Shown here: one piece after another, positions 2,905 through 64,000 of the stretch
Layout of the letters: each line of letters begins with the position of its first letter
Numbering within the stretch: position 1 is the stretch's first letter
Virus record (IMG/VR): IMGVR_UViG_3300022848_000006
DNA from: a virus
Strand: one strand, 5' to 3'
Length of the DNA: 64,000 bases
The notes under the pieces: generated by a model
What the model saw: only the letters and a program-made list of their open reading frames with translations
Told to the model about the DNA's origin: nothing
The model's database searches: none
Translations under genes and position numbers: made by a program

Positions 2905-3339
2905 CTATCTTCCACCGCCAACACAATTTTCACAACGGTAATAAGCCCTACTACTGGTCATCAAACCAGGAGAAATCTCTTTGGGCTGGTGACACACAGA
3001 GCAGTTTACCTTAATCATCTCTACTTTCTTGCGAACACGAGGCATTGGGTCTTTCTTGATCTGTGTCTCTTCTTTTCTTTCTTCTCCAGCATCCACCCAA
3101 GTATTGCTACTGGCCTGGACTGGAACAGATTTTCTATCTTCCTTATCGTCTCTGTTGACGGTGAAGTCATCATTCACGATTCTTTTGGTCATCGCTGGCG
3201 GCTCTTCATACACTGGGCCAGTGTCTTCTGTTTTGTTAGACTTGGCGTCGACGGCTTGAAGTCTGGCAATCAGTTCCTTCATTTGGTCTTGCGTAAGAAT
3301 ATCAAGGACCACGTTTATTAGTTCTTGTTTCGTTATCAT
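2905..3339 (-). CDS. Hypothetical protein with C-terminal Zn ribbon
   Basis: CSVC...CENC; tightly packed in operon. Confidence 0.65.
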   Translation of the reverse strand: MITKQELINVVLDILTQDQMKELIARLQAVDAKSNKTEDTGPVYEEPPAMTKRIVNDDFTVNRDDKEDRKSVPVQASSNTWVDAGEERKEETQIKKDPMPRVRKKVEMIKVNCSVCHQPKEISPGLMTSSRAYYRCENCVGGGR

Positions 3340-3812: not shown

Positions 3813-4203
3813 CTTCTGCTCCTGAATACTTGAGTACGATTAGTTCGATGTCATTAAGTTCACACCAACGTGCCTTGTCTTCGTCTCTGTTTAAGCCTTG
3901 AAGAAAAGCAGCCTTGTTCTTATGAAAGAAGGGCGTGTACTCATAATGCTGCTGACCGTGAACCTCTATGGCTAGCCTTAAATTTGGTAGGAAGAAATCG
4001 AAGTACAACACTGATTTCTTTTCAGCTATGACGCTGCCTGGAAGCTTTACTTCTTCCAGAACAACGTAGCTGTGATAGATACTAGATATGATTTCTCTAG
4101 CTTTTAGATGGTACTTAGACCTGTTCTTAGTAACCGTGTTTGAAGTATTGTACTTAGCGAGGTTCCAACTGTATTCTCTACCGTTAAAACCTAGTACTCT
4201 CAT
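3781..4203 (-). CDS. DUF559/Vsr-like PD-(D/E)xK endonuclease
   Basis: YFDFFLP...AIEVHGQQHY...DEDKARWCELNDIELIVL. Confidence 0.8.
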   Translation of the reverse strand: MRVLGFNGREYSWNLAKYNTSNTVTKNRSKYHLKAREIISSIYHSYVVLEEVKLPGSVIAEKKSVLYFDFFLPNLRLAIEVHGQQHYEYTPFFHKNKAAFLQGLNRDEDKARWCELNDIELIVLKYSGAEDEWREQLRPG

Positions 4204-5303
4204 GCAAACAACTCATTCATTTTCTCGTTCATAACAGGAATGAACTCAGGATGATCTTGGAAGAATCCTTGCAGCTTAGCCATACCCTGGAATTTGAAGG
4301 CCTTGTCGATATTCTCTTGCTTAGAGGTATCAGTGCCCTTCTCTTCTAGGTACTTGGCAACCAACGGATGCTCTGGATCTTCTGATAGGGCACAAACTGT
4401 ATACCAACCAGAGCCAGAGATTAACCTGTATTCACAAGCAGCTTCTAGCATTTCCTTTACATCGTCAATTCCAATGCCATATCTAAGCCATCCAACAACT
4501 TTAGTACCAGGGATAGCCCCAGTATTAGACGTTAGGACTTCCCAGTTTAGACACTGACCAATGTCAGACTCACCCTCTTTGCCCTTCCAAGGTGTCTTGA
4601 AATTGATAACAAGGTTTGTACCCACTTGGTATTGGAACATGTTGCCGCAGTCCGTCATCTTAGTCTTACGAGAAGGTCCGGTGTCTGCAATTTGGTGAGC
4701 AATACAAATCAGGATAATTCCGTTCTTTGTAATGTAGTGACTAGAACGCTTAAAGAATTGAGCAAGCAGTCTTGGCAGGCTATTTCTAGTCTGTGCATTA
4801 AGCTTGTCTTCCATTTCGTTCTTTGGGACCAAACTAGATAGCGAGTCAATCAAGATTACGCAACCCGGCACAGTCTTACCATAACGCTCAGCAATGTCCA
4901 AGAACATTTCGCCAGTAACGGCAACCTTGTCTGTAGATTCTACAATCTTCAAAGCTGCAACATCAAGACCCTTGACGCCATCGAAGTTCTGGCTGTTAAG
5001 TCTACCTTCACTGTTGAGGTAAACCACTAGCTTGCCCTTCGCTTGACACTTGGCCGCGAAGTTAAGGGCCGCTGTTGTCTTTCCAGTCTTAGGTGCCCCT
5101 GCGATACCTACTACTGTTCCTTCTCTGATGCCCCCGTTAAGTGCAGAGTCAAGGGCTGGAGAAACGCTAATGGTTTTTAGCTCTTGGATTTCTCCCAAGA
5201 CTTCTGAACCACTCTTGATAATGTCGCCGTACTCTTTCAATAGGGCGTTAGAAGTATCATCGTCAAACTTCTTCTTCTTTTCTACTGATGATTTTTTCGC
5301 CAT
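4200..5303 (-). CDS. recA: RecA/UvsX-like recombinase
   Basis: SPALDSALNGGI, GAPKTGKTT Walker A, YLNSEGRL, LIDSLSSLVP. Confidence 0.9.
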   Translation of the reverse strand: MAKKSSVEKKKKFDDDTSNALLKEYGDIIKSGSEVLGEIQELKTISVSPALDSALNGGIREGTVVGIAGAPKTGKTTAALNFAAKCQAKGKLVVYLNSEGRLNSQNFDGVKGLDVAALKIVESTDKVAVTGEMFLDIAERYGKTVPGCVILIDSLSSLVPKNEMEDKLNAQTRNSLPRLLAQFFKRSSHYITKNGIILICIAHQIADTGPSRKTKMTDCGNMFQYQVGTNLVINFKTPWKGKEGESDIGQCLNWEVLTSNTGAIPGTKVVGWLRYGIGIDDVKEMLEAACEYRLISGSGWYTVCALSEDPEHPLVAKYLEEKGTDTSKQENIDKAFKFQGMAKLQGFFQDHPEFIPVMNEKMNELFA

Positions 5304-31335: not shown

Positions 31336-31400
31336 CTGGGTCTCCTTAGTTGAGGTACAATGTATTATACACCAAAAAAGTGGACCCAGTGACAAAAAAG

Positions 31401-31738
31401 TGGAGGTGTTGGGAATTGCACCCAAGTATCCTGCGCAATCCAATTAACCGTCTACACCGATAGCTCATTGTATTCGCACAATAAGCAAAGCTAACAACCT
31501 TTGGTCGCCGTCAAGCAAGTATGTATGCCATAACTCTAGTTTTAGCATGAGTATGCGATCCCCTATTCTGGGGGAGCTAGGCACTTTTGGGCAACAGGGA
31601 AAGGCCATCCCCGGCAGCTACGCTGCTAGTGCGAAATTTTCGACAACTAAAAACTTTGGATCGCTTTTATACTGGCCTCAATCCAACCAGTCGGTGCAAG
31701 CTAATCTTCAAAACGCGGAGCGATTCTAATTCACCCCC
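31401..31738 (-). ncRNA. ssrA: tmRNA
   Basis: 5' GGGGGTG pairs with 3' CACCTCC-A (G3-U70); T arm TTGGG-TGCAATT-CCCAA; internal tag ORF GTT GTC GAA AAT TTC GCA CTA GCA GCG TAG (VVENFALAA) at 31618-31647. Confidence 0.92.
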
Positions 31739-40395: not shown

Positions 40396-40707
40396 TTACA
40401 CCTTTTTCTCGACTGTTATGACAACTTTTGTTACCTTATAGGAACTGTAACCACCATAGTCACCAGTGCTCCCACTAACTTTGTACTCAATCTTTGGGTT
40501 TTCGCCCTCAAGATATCTATTGATCCGAGACGCATCAGTAAGAATGATCTTATTGAAGTCATCTATGGACATTTCGGTTCTTTTGGTTACGGTGGTTTTC
40601 ACTTTATTTTCCTGGTATGGGCAGTTTTGACAACCATAATTACAACACCAACCTCGTTTTAATAGAAATTCTCTACTTAGCGGCCTTGGTGTGTTCTCTA
40701 ACGTCAC
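40396..40707 (-). CDS. Hypothetical protein with DUF5522-like N-terminus
   Basis: REFLLKRGWCCNYGCQNCPY followed by unrelated-looking C-terminus (possible fusion). Confidence 0.55.
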   Translation of the reverse strand: MTLENTPRPLSREFLLKRGWCCNYGCQNCPYQENKVKTTVTKRTEMSIDDFNKIILTDASRINRYLEGENPKIEYKVSGSTGDYGGYSSYKVTKVVITVEKKV

Positions 40708-41482
40708 TGACTAAGCCCTCTTCGGTGTAAACTTGGTTGATTCCGTCTTCGTGTAAGATCATAACACCAAGGTAATGAGAGAAGATCCCGTGAGAGACAT
40801 AGAGGTTAACCTCTTCTGCGTCTTGGTAATAGAGAATCTTAGAAGCTTCTCTGAAAGTACGACCACCGTCGCACAAATCGTCAACGATCAAGACACACTT
40901 GTCTGTAACGTCAGCCTCTCCGTGCATTTTCATGCCGGTAATCTCACCAGTAGACTGATTTCGCACCTTCTCCATGTAGACAAAGGGCTTGCCAGCAAGT
41001 GAAGGGTATCGAGTAGACGCACTAACGTCTGGGAAGCAAATGACTTCTGCATTGCAACCATCGATAGCCACTTGAATCTCAGCACAAGGCTCGACACAGG
41101 TCAGACCATCGCCGAAGTATTGCTCCAACAACTCTTCGCTGTGAGGGTCGAAAACGACTAGCGAATCGAATACTGGGGCAATTAAGCCTAAGAAAGTATG
41201 TAGGGCGAATGTGGCGTCATTGCTGACTTCTTTGTCCTGGCGAGCATAGGGCAAGTAGGGCAGAGTCAAGCATACGTCGACTTCAACGTTCAGGCTGCGA
41301 ATGAGAGTCATCAGTTGCAGCAAGTGAATCAATTCACCTTCATGGTCAAAGTGCCATACAATGTCCAACCCACTAGTGGAGCTTTCGATCTGCTTGATGA
41401 GCGTTAGGGGCAGCTTCCACACTTGACTGGTGTCGTCAGGGAAGATCGTAGGTGTAATTTCTTGGTCGTTCAGTTTAATCAT
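40673..41482 (-). CDS. prs: Ribose-phosphate pyrophosphokinase-like (possible ADPR-PP synthase)
   Basis: FPDDTSQV, LPYLPYARQDK, FDPHS, FPDVSA..RY, KVR, LIVDDLCDGGRTF, VSHGIFS. Confidence 0.9.
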   Translation of the reverse strand: MIKLNDQEITPTIFPDDTSQVWKLPLTLIKQIESSTSGLDIVWHFDHEGELIHLLQLMTLIRSLNVEVDVCLTLPYLPYARQDKEVSNDATFALHTFLGLIAPVFDSLVVFDPHSEELLEQYFGDGLTCVEPCAEIQVAIDGCNAEVICFPDVSASTRYPSLAGKPFVYMEKVRNQSTGEITGMKMHGEADVTDKCVLIVDDLCDGGRTFREASKILYYQDAEEVNLYVSHGIFSHYLGVMILHEDGINQVYTEEGLVSDVREHTKAAK

Positions 41483-42693: not shown

Positions 42694-42817
42694 GCTGGTC
42701 TGAGAAACCTCGGCTTAGAGTGTACTCACGCACAGTTCTAGCAAAAGTCATTGACAGAATGAAGATCTAATGCTAACTTAGATTGGTCATAGACCCTAAG
42801 CAGATTACTCAGACCAG
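42694..42817 (-). ncRNA. Candidate structured ncRNA of unknown class
   Basis: 11-bp closing stem GCTGGTCTGAG/CTCAGACCAGC, inner GCTTAGGGT/ACTCTAAGC, two further hairpins; TATAAT at 42876-42881 upstream. Confidence 0.5.
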
Positions 42818-42901
42818 CCTCTTATGCTCTATTCAAAGCATTTTAAGGTTGGGTTTGCAGATTTCATTCTCGTGTATTATAGGCTACGCACCTACAACAA
42901 T

Positions 42902-42990
42902 TAGTGAGGTAGAGATTTGCACTCTACAATACGTGATAGTTTAACGACTTCGCAAGCGGTCACATCCGTCTACCTATTCCGGCACTCACC
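42902..42990 (-). ncRNA. tRNA-like RNA with enlarged, branched anticodon arm
   Basis: GGTGAG/CTCACT acceptor, D arm CCG-GAATAGGTAGA-CGG, T arm GTAGAG-TGCAAAT-CTCTAC, 23-nt structured loop in place of anticodon loop. Confidence 0.55.
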
Positions 42991-43047: not shown

Positions 43048-44736
43048 CTAAACCGACACTAGGTTTAGTAGCTCTTGGTCCATCGTTTCGTTGAACAGGT
43101 CCATCGCGGTCTCAATCTTGTTGTTCAGAATGAACTGAACGTTGGAAGCTGAGTAACCAGACAAGTAGAACACGTTCTTCACGTCTCCAAAGGTCTCAAA
43201 CTTTTGCTTGCTACCAGAACCATAGTATCTGTTGTACAGGTTCCACAAACAAATCTTGAAGTTGTCACAGTACTCTGGTGAGAATCCTGCTTGACGCAAC
43301 TTGTTACGAGCCATTTCAACGTTGGTCTTACCCAGTTGAGCAGGATCAAACTCGCCGTCACTGATACAAACAATTCCACCAGGGAAGTCTGACTCAGGAA
43401 CACCTTGCCCCTTTAGGTTAACGAACAGGTCGATAACCGATTGGAAGTTGGTATTCCCAACACAACCAGAGCGATCATTATGCCACTTCTCGGAAGCGGT
43501 TTGCCCTTTCCATTCGTGCATCTGTGCTGAGCGGTTAAACTCAATCCAGTTGTCTGCGAATTGTCCAGACAAAAACTCTGAGAAATACAATGCCATTGCC
43601 TTCGCAACGTTAAAGCATGTGAACTTAGATCCGTCAGCCGTATCTCCCATAGATCCCGAAGTATCACGAACAACAATCATTCCAGTGGAATTCTCATTCT
43701 CGCCCTTCGCCTTGTTAACAGCCTCAACGAACTGCTTGTCAACGGTACTAACGAAGTTAGCATCCCTGTTGGTGTCTAGCTCACAGAGCAGTTCGTAAAT
43801 GAACCCTGTGTACTTGACCGAAACAGTTTCCTTGTCATTGATCCACTCGTAGTAAGCGTCAGACAGGTTTTGGTTCTTCAAGAACTTACTACGAACCAGT
43901 AGGTTCAGGGCACGTCCATGAATTGTCTTGAAGTCCAACTCTGCAAACTTTTGTTGAGAGATCAGCTTTTGCCACTCGTGAGAGGTTCCGCTGTTCTTCA
44001 ACTTGCGATACTCTCTGTAGGTCTTAGAGCCGCTCTTTGATCCGAAGACCAAGTTACAGATCCACTTAGCGATGATGTTGCCAGCTTGCTTCTCGACAGT
44101 CGTACAAGACGAGTTAGACCTGATTTGGGGCAGGTACTTCTTCATCAAGTTGACAGTGGTCTCATTCCCTAGCAACTCCACGATCAGAGCACCGAACTTA
44201 TCCCAGTCCAGCTTACGTCCCTCCCAACCGTGGTACACAAGGTCTTGACGGAGCATCGTGATGATGTCCTTACAAGAACCAGCAGAAATGAATAGGCCAA
44301 TGTTTGACCAAAATGCCTCTGGGTCTTTTTGAGACAGCCAGACCATACGCATGATTCCTTCATGACGTAGCTCTGCTCCAGATTGTGCCTCTTGAGTTTT
44401 GATACCCAAGCCGAACAAATCAGTCTTACGACTAATCATTCTCATGTAGATAGTGAACTTAACGAACAGTTCTTTGTCCTTCGCATACAGCTTAGAGCAG
44501 TCGCTAGAGATATCATCGAATGAACGTGGAGCCTTATAGGTTCCGAGGTTGCCGAATTGGTCTACGAAATCAGATCCAGTCGTTTGGAACTTCAAAGCTG
44601 CGTTGCCACTGAGAGTCTTTGCAGACTCTTTTTCCAGGCCAAACAAGAACTGATTTTTCTTATTAGAGCCTTTTTTGACCTTTTTAACACGAACTTCAAT
44701 TAGTTGGTTTTTCTTTTCCTTAAACATTTCAGTCAT
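43048..44736 (-). CDS. DUF2828-type, Ro60/TROVE-like protein (helical N-domain + vWA)
   Basis: Long helical N-terminus (RMISRK, GSCKD, KYLPQIR, EWQKLISQQKFAELDFKTIHGRAL); vWA with VRDTSGSM MIDAS, NTNFQSVIDL, ISDGEFD, LWNL. Confidence 0.78.
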   Translation of the reverse strand: MTEMFKEKKNQLIEVRVKKVKKGSNKKNQFLFGLEKESAKTLSGNAALKFQTTGSDFVDQFGNLGTYKAPRSFDDISSDCSKLYAKDKELFVKFTIYMRMISRKTDLFGLGIKTQEAQSGAELRHEGIMRMVWLSQKDPEAFWSNIGLFISAGSCKDIITMLRQDLVYHGWEGRKLDWDKFGALIVELLGNETTVNLMKKYLPQIRSNSSCTTVEKQAGNIIAKWICNLVFGSKSGSKTYREYRKLKNSGTSHEWQKLISQQKFAELDFKTIHGRALNLLVRSKFLKNQNLSDAYYEWINDKETVSVKYTGFIYELLCELDTNRDANFVSTVDKQFVEAVNKAKGENENSTGMIVVRDTSGSMGDTADGSKFTCFNVAKAMALYFSEFLSGQFADNWIEFNRSAQMHEWKGQTASEKWHNDRSGCVGNTNFQSVIDLFVNLKGQGVPESDFPGGIVCISDGEFDPAQLGKTNVEMARNKLRQAGFSPEYCDNFKICLWNLYNRYYGSGSKQKFETFGDVKNVFYLSGYSASNVQFILNNKIETAMDLFNETMDQELLNLVSV

Positions 44737-44866
44737 TATGAATTTCCCTGTGACAATTTGAACAAAGTGGAACGCACTTTTTTAATTCTTCTTTAAGCTT
44801 ATTAGTACAACTAACTAGCCTAGACGTTAATTTATACTTATTGTCGTGATCCAGACTACATTTCAA
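44729..44866 (-). pseudogene. HNH endonuclease C-terminal remnant
   Basis: ...SRLVSCTNKLKEELKKCVPLCSNCHREIHND*, stop overlaps start of DUF2828 gene. Confidence 0.65.
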
Positions 44867-44916
44867 CGTTTCAAATTATTAGTTTGATGTTTGAAGTGAT
44901 TTGCGGTTTATAGTCT
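44853..44916 (-). ncRNA. Y RNA-like unit 3
   Basis: Stem AGACTAT/GTAGTCT enclosing AAACCGCAAAT...TGAAAT. Confidence 0.6.
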
Positions 44917-44921
44917 TGTTC

Positions 44922-45029
44922 GAGTTTCGTTTTCGTGCTCTACCATTAAGCTACAAGTGCAAGCACTTGATCAGATTCGAACTGATACCACGTCATTAAC
45001 AATTGAAAATAGATTGCTGAATGAAACTC
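44922..45029 (-). ncRNA. Y RNA-like unit 2 containing a circularly permuted tRNA module (YrlA-like)
   Basis: Stem GAGTTTC/GAAACTC; ATTCAGCAAT motif; T arm ATCAG-TTCGAAT-CTGAT, acceptor hairpin CAAGTGC-TT-GCACTTG, TA, D arm GCTT-AATGGTA-GAGC. Confidence 0.78.
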
Positions 45030-45034
45030 TATAC

Positions 45035-45088
45035 AGGCCACGTTTAATTCAACCAAAATGAAATTGTTTGATTTGCAGTATGCGGCCT
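45035..45088 (-). ncRNA. Y RNA-like unit 1
   Basis: Stem AGGCCGC/GTGGCCT enclosing ATACTGCAAAT...TTAAAC. Confidence 0.6.
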
Positions 45089-45108
45089 TGTCTCGTTCTC
45101 ATACTAGT

Positions 45109-45136
45109 ATTATAGCAGAGAACGAGTTTTTGTCAA
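45109..45136 (-). promoter_or_regulatory. sigma70-type promoter TTGACA-N16-TATAAT with TGn extension
   Basis: Directly upstream of the RNA array and DUF2828 gene. Confidence 0.85.
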
Positions 45137-63711: not shown

Positions 63712-64000
63712 TTAAGATTCTTGAGATTCCATATCTATTTCTCCAGAATCTAATTGCTTAGTTTCGTGAAGATAGAAATTGGGGGACTTTGCTTTTGCGA
63801 AATACTCGTTAACTCCATATTTCATCAAAACAACACCCTCATCACAAGGAGCCCCTTCGTCGAGAGGTAAGCAGTCTTTGAACCCACTCTTAAAGAAGCT
63901 TTTGTCCATATAATAATCGACATCTATATCTTCAAACAAACCTCGTTCCATTTCTGGGACATGATTAATACCGTTCTGTAGACAAAACTCTTTAACCTGA
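63712..64000 (-). CDS. Probable RNA ligase C-terminus (partial, 5' end outside window)
   Basis: QVKEFCLQNGINHVPEM...CDEGVVL...FAKAKSPNFYLHE resembles nucleotidyltransferase motifs IV-V of Rnl2-like ligases. Confidence 0.55.
   Translation of the reverse strand, partial: QVKEFCLQNGINHVPEMERGLFEDIDVDYYMDKSFFKSGFKDCLPLDEGAPCDEGVVLMKYGVNEYFAKAKSPNFYLHETKQLDSGEIDMESQES

What the first reader, a model, noticed from the sequence alone, without database searches (positions are those of the whole stretch)
44922..45029. Circularly permuted tRNA module with a closed acceptor stem
On the minus strand the tRNA 3' half comes first (TGGT, ATCAG-TTCGAAT-CTGAT, CAAGTGC) and is joined by only TT to the 5' half (GCACTTG, TA, GCTT-AATGGTA-GAGC, A). 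The acceptor stem is therefore a perfect 7-bp hairpin that cannot be aminoacylated, and the anticodon arm is replaced by the long carrier stem. T-loop and D-loop consensus bases are intact, so the tRNA elbow is probably retained. This topology matches YrlA-type tRNA mimics (established). A decoy role against host tRNA-targeting nucleases or tRNA sensors is inference.
Basis: partly seen in the sequence, partly recalled or inferred. Interest (0 to 1): 0.8.

Follow-up and report, generated by a model that had tools for sequence, protein, structure and literature searches.

The report
tRNA-mimic partner RNA of phage Ro60-like protein
The rearranged, sealed-end tRNA look-alike is real: it is one of three small RNAs encoded just upstream of a phage gene whose protein is predicted to fold like the RNA-quality-control ring Ro60, and this RNA-protein pairing recurs in many phages but does not seem to be described in the literature.

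Summary
Observation confirmed. On the minus strand, 45029..44922 holds a T arm, a hairpin-closed 7-bp acceptor stem (C-UU-G cap) and a D arm, in that order, clamped by a 7-bp helix (GAGUUUC/GAAACUC).

A covariance model built without this sequence scores it 73.9 bits, E 1.8e-13. Rfam YrlA scores it 34.6 bits, below the 69-bit cut-off.

It is the middle unit of a three-unit array. A consensus sigma-70 promoter precedes the array, and a 562-aa ORF follows it (DUF7788; relatives also carry DUF2828). The ORF's AlphaFold model matches only Ro60 structures over its full length (Z 14-16). No sequence profile detects TROVE.

Each unit has the same "handle": a clamp helix, then CNGCAA (consensus ACAGCAAAU), an A-rich 3' side and a GAUAAG-like trailer.

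Units lie on the gene's strand in 55 of 79 related phage loci. In six whole phage genomes (1.39 Mb) every match below E 1e-3 lies within about 2.5 kb of the gene. Units also flank the gene in Listeria phage A511, Citrobacter phage Ci1 and Leptolyngbya phage Lbo-JY46. 29 of 30 base pairs covary.

Best reading: a Y-RNA-like partner of a divergent Ro60-like protein, working like YrlA but failing two defining YrlA tests. Handle-only units resemble Dictyostelium Class I RNAs. Earlier notes from this scan report the same system on other DNA.

The parts
45109..45136 (-). Consensus sigma-70 promoter: TTGACA, 16-nt spacer, TG-extended TATAAT. The expected transcription start is near 45102.
   Evidence: 12 of 12 hexamer matches with TG before the -10. 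The sequence is shown.
45027..45088 (-). Unit 1, handle only. Clamp AGGCCGC/GUGGCCU, then AUACUGCAAAU, an A/U-rich loop and the trailer GUAUAGA.
   Evidence: Model R2 gives 32.9 bits, E 8.5e-5 over the whole 64-kb window. Rfam Dicty_Class_I gives 20.9 bits, below threshold.
44914..45029 (-). Unit 2, the finding itself: a handle carrying a permuted tRNA body. Clamp 45029..45023 pairs with 44928..44922. CAGCAA lies at 45019..45014. The T arm is 44986..44970, the sealed acceptor hairpin 44969..44954, and the D arm 44951..44937. A 2-bp remnant of the anticodon stem joins 44992..44991 with 44935..44934. The trailer GAACAAGA is 44921..44914.
   Evidence: R1 gives 73.2 bits. The leave-one-out model R3 gives 73.9 bits, E 1.8e-13. 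Rfam YrlA gives 34.6 bits.
44845..44916 (-). Unit 3, a degenerate handle-only unit. The 8-bp clamp AGACUAUA/UGUAGUCU is followed by AACCGCAAAU. Its 5' strand overlaps the trailer of unit 2.
   Evidence: R2 gives 14.2 bits, E 1.4. This is weak on its own; it is supported by its position and by a clamp in which all 8 positions can pair (sequence).
43048..44736 (-). Gene for a 562-aa Ro60-fold protein: a helical-repeat ring plus a C-terminal vWA domain with an intact MIDAS motif (D358, S360, S362). Pfam DUF7788; relatives also carry DUF2828; PHROG 850 'RNA-binding protein'.
42748..42870 (-). Possible fourth unit downstream of the gene. Clamp AGAAUGAA/UUCAUUCU, then UCUGCAAAC, an inner helix AUGCU/AGCAU and a 59-nt insert that is not tRNA-like.
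   Evidence: R1 with filters off gives 11 bits, E 0.66. This is weak; only the architecture is visible.

Best explanation
The 116-nt stretch encodes a small non-coding RNA that is the cognate partner of the Ro60-like protein encoded 180 nt downstream. It is a phage Y-RNA analogue.

The RNA has two modules. The first is a 'handle'. A 7-bp clamp joins the RNA's 5' and 3' ends. An unpaired CNGCAA motif follows directly after the 5' strand, an A-rich stretch precedes the 3' strand, and a GAUAAG-like trailer follows. All units in the array share this handle, so I take it to be the protein-binding site.

The second module is a displayed tRNA body: T arm, D arm, variable loop and an acceptor stem sealed by C-UU-G, with no anticodon loop. 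It should fold into the tRNA L-shape and present a tRNA elbow.

By analogy with Ro60 and YrlA, the RNA would tether a tRNA-recognising enzyme or factor to the protein ring, or gate access to the ring, for surveillance, repair or turnover of tRNAs during infection.

The three units and the gene are probably one transcript from the consensus promoter, which nucleases then cut into separate units.

Shown here: the sequence anatomy, conservation with covariation, strict genomic linkage, and the protein's predicted fold. Inferred: binding of the handle by the protein, the L-shaped fold, the effector, and the biological role.
For: Protein. The AlphaFold2 model has mean pLDDT 79.6 and pTM 0.79. The top 12 Foldseek PDB matches are all Ro60/TROVE structures, E 1e-6 to 4e-4, each aligned over about 490-600 columns. 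VIA-align gives Z 14.3-16.4 over 379-424 residues spanning model residues 42-560, well above the next matches, which cover only the vWA domain (Z about 10). The MIDAS motif DxSxS is invariant in the family.

RNA. Model R1 finds 63 units at E < 1e-6 in 46 related loci plus the window. All 180 matches at E <= 1 lie on the gene's strand. 29 of 30 base pairs show compensatory changes, and 90.2% of cells are paired against about 41% when partners are slid. The inner 'anticodon' helix was not used to pick candidates, yet all 5 of its pairs covary. The clamp of handle-only units covaries at 8 of 8 pairs on an alignment not fitted to structure.

Linkage. In six phage genomes totalling 1.39 Mb, every match below E 1e-3 lies within about 2.5 kb of the DUF2828-type gene on its strand. 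Units also flank the gene in Listeria phage A511, Citrobacter phage Ci1 and Leptolyngbya phage Lbo-JY46, where the protein is only 25-43% identical. In at least five distinct loci a unit overlaps the gene's own start codon (AG-AUG-UUU-AAC-AGC-AAA). That is what one expects if the protein binds the handle.

Context. The gene lies beside the phage tRNA cluster, and an Rnl2-type RNA ligase is encoded in the genome. In A511 the homologue lies near genes annotated as a tRNA splicing ligase and an RNA ligase.

Independent family signal. Rfam YrlA hits this unit and relatives at 28-46 bits.
Against: No experiment shows the RNA is made, processed or bound. The protein is linked to Ro60 only by a predicted fold. 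Sequence profiles against the PDB and the TROVE model find nothing.

The canonical Ro60-binding motif is absent, so the binding mode cannot be carried over from the known Ro60-Y RNA structures.

About 15-20 of the 79 loci show no unit within 4 kb using my models.

My first candidate scan required the T, acceptor, D and clamp helices to pair, and the covariation counts come from a model-fitted alignment. Both inflate the covariation figures somewhat.

The gene always lies within tRNA-rich regions, so some tRNA-likeness nearby is expected. However, canonical tRNAs give only partial model matches.
Confidence: 0.75

Rival explanations
1. A two-piece tRNA-like RNA. RNase P cuts 5' of G1 in the acceptor loop, the new 3' end is trimmed and given CCA, and the resulting split molecule can be charged or can engage translation factors. 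The sealed form would be only a precursor.
For: The acceptor stem is 7 bp, the feature that made M. smegmatis YrlA an RNase P and CCA-adding substrate (PMC4201824; bioRxiv 10.1101/312249). In relatives the acceptor loops are bimodal in length. The 12-22-nt loops usually begin with a purine then C, and several encode ACCA (L021, L084, L060, L029) followed by an A/U-rich stretch resembling a tRNA 5' leader.
Against: This unit has only UU in the loop, with no discriminator base and no CCA. About half the family has loops of 0-8 nt. There is no anticodon loop and no G3-U70 pair (position 3 is A-U). This reading would modify the Ro-partner reading rather than replace it.
Confidence: 0.08
2. A cis-acting leader. 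The array lies in the 5' UTR and mainly controls translation or stability of the Ro60-like mRNA, for example through autoregulatory binding. It would not act as free small RNAs.
For: The scan found no terminator-like site between the array and the ORF. In other phages a handle overlaps the start codon of the gene.
Against: In most loci the units lie downstream of the gene, or directly abut tRNA genes, where RNase P would release them. A tRNA body with intact tertiary-contact bases is unnecessary for a simple operator.
Confidence: 0.07
3. A protein-independent decoy or sponge. The tRNA elbow mimic soaks up a host tRNA-binding defence factor or sensor by itself.
For: The tRNA tertiary-contact bases are conserved. 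Related units mimic D arms that resemble, from my memory of E. coli tRNAs, those of tRNA-Glu, tRNA-Leu and tRNA-Lys, as if several tRNA species were being imitated.
Against: With no anticodon loop and no free CCA end, it cannot imitate the substrate of anticodon nucleases or of toxins that modify the CCA end. The strict linkage to the Ro60-like gene and the shared handle are unexplained if the protein is irrelevant.
Confidence: 0.07
4. A decayed or rearranged tRNA pseudogene in a tRNA-rich region, with no function.
For: The 5' half resembles the phage's own tRNA-Arg 5' half (local alignment score 16 over its 25 nt).
Against: The same permuted topology recurs in dozens of distantly related phages, with compensatory changes in every helix.
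Confidence: 0.01

Closest known systems
YrlA-type bacterial and phage Y RNAs with Ro60/Rsr (Rfam RF02553; Chen et al. 2014, PMC4201824; Wang et al. 2018, bioRxiv 10.1101/312249)
   Same: Both have a two-module design: a protein-binding stem formed by the RNA's ends, plus a tRNA-like module in the order T arm, closed acceptor stem-loop, D arm. Both keep the tRNA tertiary-contact bases. Both are encoded within a few kb of a Ro60-fold protein gene on the same strand. Both often lie next to tRNA genes and near RNA-repair genes.
   Different: This RNA scores far below the Rfam cut-off (34.6 against 69 bits). The GNCGAAN0-1G Ro60-binding motif is replaced by a clamp plus ACAGCAA(AU) and a GAUAAG trailer. 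The T and D stems covary freely and appear to imitate different tRNA species, whereas YrlA T and D stems are reported as strongly conserved in sequence. The partner protein belongs to DUF2828/DUF7788, not to the TROVE sequence family. Units occur as tandem arrays of up to five or more.
Thermus phage phiLo Ro60 with Yrl1 and Yrl2 (PMC12135203; PDB 9KOP, 9L5Y)
   Same: A phage-encoded Ro60-fold protein with Y-like RNAs encoded just upstream. 9KOP is the best structural match of the window's protein (Z 16.4).
   Different: The phiLo protein was found as a Ro60 homologue by a UniProt search, and its RNAs were picked by a CGAA motif. No tRNA-like module is mentioned in that paper (the term 'tRNA-like' occurs 0 times).
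Dictyostelium Class I RNAs (Rfam RF01414; Kjellin et al. 2021, PMC7919456)
   Same: Handle-only units share the architecture: about 60 nt, a short stem joining the 5' and 3' ends, an unpaired UUACAGCAA-type motif right after the 5' strand, a variable A/U-rich loop, and CUG after the 3' strand. RF01414 hits unit 1 at 20.9 bits, and 11 units in 60 kb of related loci at 24-34 bits, all on the gene's strand.
   Different: Every score is below the 41.5-bit cut-off. Class I RNAs are reported as unique to dictyostelids, and their known direct binder is an RRM protein (Rnp1A/CIBP). No link to a DUF2828 protein is documented. I could not check whether dictyostelids encode one.
Permuted tRNA genes (Cyanidioschyzon type) and two-piece tmRNA
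   Same: The 3' half of the tRNA is encoded upstream of the 5' half.
   Different: Those genes yield a complete tRNA with an anticodon loop, or a tag-encoding tmRNA with a CCA end. Here there is no anticodon loop, no tag frame, no G3-U70 pair and, in this unit, no CCA.

Membership tests
YrlA (Rfam RF02553) | Score at or above Rfam's gathering threshold of 69 bits | tested here: not met
   34.6 bits, E 1.4e-5, model positions 1-114 with the middle helices deleted. Relatives score 28-46 bits.
YrlA (Rfam RF02553) | tRNA-like module in the order T arm, closed acceptor stem-loop, D arm, with the tRNA tertiary-contact bases | tested here: met
   G53, U54, U55, C56, A58, C61, U8, A14 and a D-loop G are invariant in 41 aligned units.
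YrlA (Rfam RF02553) | Ro60-binding module with the GNCGAAN0-1G motif on the 5' strand (PMC4201824) | tested here: not met
   Absent from the window's unit. Present in the first 35 nt of only 1 of 62 related units, whereas CNGCA is in the first 20 nt of 56 of 62.
YrlA (Rfam RF02553) | Encoded within about 4 kb of a TROVE-domain Ro60 gene and on the same strand | tested here: inconclusive
   Position and strand are met: the gene starts 178 nt downstream of the unit. The protein has the Ro60 fold, but the Pfam TROVE profile finds nothing in the protein or in the whole genome.
YrlA (Rfam RF02553) | tRNA-type modifications (pseudouridine 55, dihydrouridine) and binding by Ro60 in vivo | not testable with these tools
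   Requires experiments.
Ro60 / TROVE proteins (for the adjacent ORF) | Helical-repeat ring followed by a vWA domain with a MIDAS site | tested here: met
   In a predicted model only: Foldseek and VIA-align give Ro60 entries as the only full-length matches. DxSxS is invariant.
Ro60 / TROVE proteins (for the adjacent ORF) | Recognisable by the TROVE sequence profile (PF05731) | tested here: not met
   phmmer and a family profile against PDB sequences also miss Ro60.
Clamp-plus-ACAGCAA 'handle' RNAs next to DUF2828/DUF7788 genes (no published name found) | A 7-8-bp covarying clamp, CNGCAA within a few nt of the 5' strand, an A-rich 3' side, a GAUAAG-type trailer, and the same strand as the gene | tested here: met
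   The leave-one-out model R3 gives 73.9 bits, E 1.8e-13. The clamp and CAGCAA are present. The trailer is a variant, GAACAAGA.
Dictyostelium Class I RNA (RF01414) | Score at or above 41.5 bits; occurrence in Dictyostelia | tested here: not met
   Unit 1 scores 20.9 bits and relatives reach at most 33.9 bits. This is a phage.
Functional permuted tRNA gene or two-piece tmRNA | An anticodon loop or a tag reading frame, and a CCA or processable 3' end | tested here: not met
   No anticodon loop, a UU acceptor loop and an A3-U70 pair. ARAGORN calls neither a tRNA nor a tmRNA here.

The most novel reading that the evidence does not exclude
The clamp-plus-ACAGCAA handle may be the recognition tag of an ancient second Ro-like RNP lineage, built on DUF2828/DUF7788 proteins and shared by phages and eukaryotes. 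On this reading the Dictyostelium Class I RNAs, reported as unique to social amoebae and of unknown mechanism, are eukaryotic members of the same RNA family. Their missing partner would be a DUF2828-type protein, possibly the uncharacterised DDB_G0281243 recovered in the Class I pull-down. Phages would use the handle as a display platform for tRNA bodies that imitate different tRNA species.
Probability: 0.2. Interest if true: 0.9.

Novelty: new variant of a known kind. Interest (0 to 1): 0.75.

Why it matters
Ro60 with its Y RNAs is a classic RNP that is still poorly understood. It acts in RNA quality control, is an autoantigen, and in bacteria is linked to RNA repair.

This finding gives a large 'domain of unknown function' family a fold, a probable RNA ligand and a testable mechanism. 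The first search found at least 1,678 protein clusters. Cultivable phages such as Listeria A511/P100, Citrobacter Ci1 and Leptolyngbya Lbo-JY46 carry the gene with adjacent units, and homologues also occur in Campylobacter and Enterococcus phages. Plants also encode DUF2828 proteins (PMC12344491).

It also shows that the tRNA-mimic Y RNA design is older or more widespread than the YrlA family. The tRNA body varies between units as if different tRNA species were imitated, which points to tRNA-specific partners.

It offers a concrete lead on the unexplained Class I RNAs of Dictyostelium.

Because cultivable phages carry the system, the key experiments are straightforward.

Tried and rejected
- blastn of the region against 50,697 phage records found no match.
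- phmmer of the protein, and an HMM of its family, against PDB sequences found no Ro60; only chance hits to LIMP-2 appeared, at E about 0.1.
- NCBIfam returned nothing.
- TROVE, RtcB and T4 Rnl1 profiles found nothing in the phage genome. The Rnl1 control matched nothing anywhere, so that result is uninformative.
- The genome search with RF02553 on the phage's own genome listed only tRNA cross-hits and missed this site. That is a filter effect, because cmscan on the 1-kb region finds it.
- Thermodynamic z-scores were not significant: -0.01 for 271 nt and -0.21 for 108 nt. I therefore relied on covariation.
- I considered that tandem units might be split tRNA genes, with the 5' half of one unit pairing with the 3' half of the next. 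I rejected this because each acceptor 3' strand pairs with the 5' strand that immediately follows it, not with that of a neighbouring unit.
- I considered a hammerhead or other ribozyme core in CUGAUAAG. It does not match the CUGANGA...GAAA consensus (from memory), and Rfam gives no ribozyme hit here.
- The ESM Atlas returned only the protein's own viral family.
- The literature search found nothing on DUF2828 function or on DDB_G0281243's domains. Avesson et al. 2011 is not in the library.

Full report
**What is there.**

Read on the minus strand, the window holds a perfect extended sigma-70 promoter at 45136..45109. It is followed by three abutting small-RNA units and then, from 44736, a 562-codon ORF.

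The finding is unit 2 (45029..44914). Its parts, in order, are:
- a 7-bp clamp, GAGUUUC with GAAACUC;
- an unpaired AUUCAGCAAUC directly after the 5' strand;
- about 20 more unpaired bases;
- a 2-bp remnant of the anticodon stem;
- a 4-nt variable loop;
- a T arm with the loop UUCGAAU;
- a 7-bp acceptor stem capped by UU;
- U8 and A9;
- a D arm with the loop AAUGGUA;
- A26, then a short A-rich strand back to the clamp.

Every base that builds the tRNA elbow is present. ARAGORN and Rfam's tRNA model ordinary tRNAs and a tmRNA in the window, but not this element. The 'long carrier stem' is really a short clamp plus a large asymmetric loop.

**Is it more than chance?**

Rfam's YrlA model matches 45003..44912 at 34.6 bits, E 1.4e-5. 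That is well below the 69-bit gathering score, but no other family comes close.

I searched 79 viral contigs that encode a homologue of the neighbouring protein. A simple script looked for T arm, closed hairpin and D arm in that order. It found dozens of hits on the gene's strand and almost none on the other strand. None overlapped an ARAGORN tRNA except in one tandem tRNA pair.

Every hit sits in the same larger unit. A covariance model of the unit (R1) found 63 matches at E < 1e-6 in 46 loci plus the window. All 180 matches at E <= 1 lie on the gene's strand.

On the aligned matches, 29 of 30 pairs show compensatory changes, and 90% of cells pair against about 41% in slid controls. All five pairs of the inner anticodon-type helix covary, although my script never required that helix.

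A model rebuilt without the window's sequence (R3) scores the window unit 73.9 bits, E 1.8e-13.

Two caveats apply. The alignment used is fitted to the model, and my seed selection demanded pairing in four of the five helices.

**The neighbours.**

A second model for units without a tRNA body (R2) gave exactly two matches in the 64-kb window, and both flank unit 2. Unit 1 (45088..45027) scores 32.9 bits, E 8.5e-5. Unit 3 (44916..44845) scores 14.2 bits, E 1.4, and is a degenerate copy. The clamp of such handle-only units covaries at 8 of 8 pairs on a plain MAFFT alignment.

The shared handle is: AG-clamp, (U/A)ACAGCAAAU, a variable part, an A-rich run, clamp-CU, then GAUAAGA.

**The protein.**

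- Pfam sees only DUF7788.
- PHROGs calls it an 'RNA-binding protein'.
- Relatives also carry DUF2828.
- The TROVE profile, NCBIfam and sequence searches of the PDB see nothing.
- An AlphaFold2 model from 23 homologues (pLDDT 79.6) has Ro60 structures as its only full-length matches. These include Xenopus, human and Deinococcus Ro60 and the Thermus phage phiLo Ro60. Foldseek gives E 1e-6 to 4e-4. VIA-align gives Z 14.3-16.4 over about 400-420 residues covering both the ring and the vWA domain.
- The MIDAS motif is invariant in the family.

So this is a remote Ro60-like protein, by predicted fold only.

**Linkage.**

R1 scans of six phage genomes (1.39 Mb) put every match below E 1e-3 within about 2.5 kb of this gene on its strand. 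Elsewhere there are only partial cross-hits to tRNAs, plus two weak full-length matches at E 0.004 and 0.009.

Of the 79 loci, 55 have a unit at E <= 1e-3 with R1, and one more with R2. A block of about 15-20 loci shows none within 4 kb.

Cultivated phages carry the system too:
- Leptolyngbya phage Lbo-JY46 has units directly downstream of the gene.
- Listeria phage A511 has three units directly upstream. A gene annotated as a tRNA splicing ligase and an RNA ligase lie nearby.
- Citrobacter phage Ci1 has two tRNA-like units downstream, one of which overlaps a feature annotated as a tRNA pseudogene.

In at least five distinct loci a handle overlaps the gene's own start codon. This suggests the protein binds the handle and may regulate its own synthesis.

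**How it most likely works.**

The architecture is that of a Y RNA: a stem made of the two ends that carries the protein's recognition element, plus a variable effector module. In YrlA that module is a tRNA mimic with a sealed acceptor stem, and it is modified by TruB and DusA (PMC4201824; bioRxiv 10.1101/312249).

I therefore read unit 2 as the tRNA-mimic partner RNA of the Ro60-like protein. It would bring a tRNA-elbow-binding factor to the ring, or control what enters it. The likely purpose is tRNA surveillance or repair, given the setting inside the tRNA cluster and the RNA ligases nearby. Binding, effector and purpose are all inferences.

**How it differs from YrlA.**

- It falls below the Rfam cut-off.
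- The GNCGAAN0-1G motif is missing, present in 1 of 62 units.
- The partner is not a TROVE-profile protein.
- Units form arrays.
- T and D stems vary freely and resemble the arms of different tRNA species, whereas YrlA's are reported as conserved.

Acceptor loops in the family are bimodal in length. About half are 0-8 nt, like this UU. Most of the rest are 12-22 nt, and three are 68-87 nt. The long loops often start with a purine then C, or with ACCA. That hints that some members are opened by RNase P, as M. smegmatis YrlA is. Several units abut the 5' end of a true tRNA, so RNase P would form their 3' ends.

**Class I resemblance.**

Of 4,227 Rfam families, the only one besides YrlA that repeatedly touches the units is Dictyostelium Class I RNA. 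It hits unit 1 at 20.9 bits, and 11 units in 60 kb of related loci at 24-34 bits, all on the gene's strand and all below the 41.5-bit cut-off.

The published description matches the handle-only units closely: about 60 nt, a short terminal stem, an unpaired 11-nt motif next to the 5' strand, a variable remainder, and CUGU after the 3' stem (PMC7919456). One of four proteins pulled down with a Class I RNA, DDB_G0281243, has unknown function (bioRxiv 10.1101/2020.04.05.026054). I could not check its domains. I treat this as a lead, not a result.

**Novelty.**

Phage Ro60 proteins with Y-like RNAs are known: mycobacteriophages, CcrColossus, Bacillus phage G and phiLo (PMC4201824, PMC12135203, PMC7824862). 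I found no paper on DUF2828 as a Ro60-like protein, or on these RNAs, and Rfam 15 has no model for them. The library is limited, so this is absence of evidence only.

Earlier notes from this scan describe the same protein-RNA pairing on other DNA and give the same reading. They are unchecked AI notes, and I reached my reading before seeing most of them.

Verdict: a real, well-supported RNA. It works like YrlA but is not a member of that family. It is a new variant of a known kind.

Noticed in passing
L055, L018, L040, L024, L056, L068 at about 4002-4068 (L005 at 3003-3061): In several related phages a handle unit overlaps the start of the Ro60-like ORF: AG-AUG-UUU-AAC-AGC-AAA, with the clamp's 3' strand about 55 nt into the coding region. 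This looks like an autoregulatory operator that imitates the protein's RNA ligand. The window's own gene start lacks it.
   Followed up: partly
L021:6032-6180, L084:1021-1168 and 1387-1537, L060:2186-2329, L029:7110-7306: Some tRNA-like units have long acceptor loops that begin with ACCA and end in an A/U-rich stretch, as if a tRNA 3' end and a 5' leader were encoded inside the loop. They may be opened by RNase P into two-piece molecules with a CCA end.
   Followed up: partly
L010:5923-6060, L039:106-251, L041:1383-1528, L078:479-607, L075:9080-9229, L074:7360-7426: Units frequently end exactly where a canonical tRNA begins, so RNase P processing of that tRNA would create the unit's 3' end. 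Units and tRNAs look like parts of one polycistronic precursor.
   Followed up: no
L040:3871-3958 (same contig as L002:2871-2958): A RAGATH-1 hammerhead-like match (49 bits, cut-off 56.3) lies immediately upstream of the Ro60-like gene in one related phage.
   Followed up: no
window 42902-42990 (-): Just downstream of the Ro60-like gene lies a tRNA-like sequence with an oversized anticodon loop of about 23 nt and a T loop reading UGCAAAU. Neither ARAGORN nor Rfam calls it a tRNA. An earlier first-reader note pointed me to it.
   Followed up: partly
window 42748-42870 (-): A possible fourth handle unit carries a 59-nt branched insert that is not tRNA-like. R1 scores it only 11 bits, E 0.66.
   Followed up: partly
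window 31398-31738 (-): A phage-encoded tmRNA (Rfam 48.2 bits, cut-off 47). tmRNA genes also lie near the Ro60-like gene in related loci L005/L056 and L053, and ARAGORN calls a permuted tmRNA in L011.
   Followed up: no
L090 (Listeria phage A511, NC_009811.2 18748-30247): The A511 homologue is annotated 'RNA-binding protein'. It lies between an 11-tRNA cluster and genes annotated as metal-dependent phosphohydrolase, tRNA splicing ligase, tRNA amidotransferase and RNA ligase. Three unannotated handle units lie at locus positions 4696-4967.
   Followed up: partly
window about 63826-64000 (G000:C1:61176-61745): An Rnl2-type RNA ligase domain (PF09414, 46.9 bits) lies at the edge of the window, at the far end of the tRNA cluster.
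   Followed up: no
window 40673-41482 (-): A ribose-phosphate pyrophosphokinase-like gene (phrog_619, E 6e-53).
   Followed up: no
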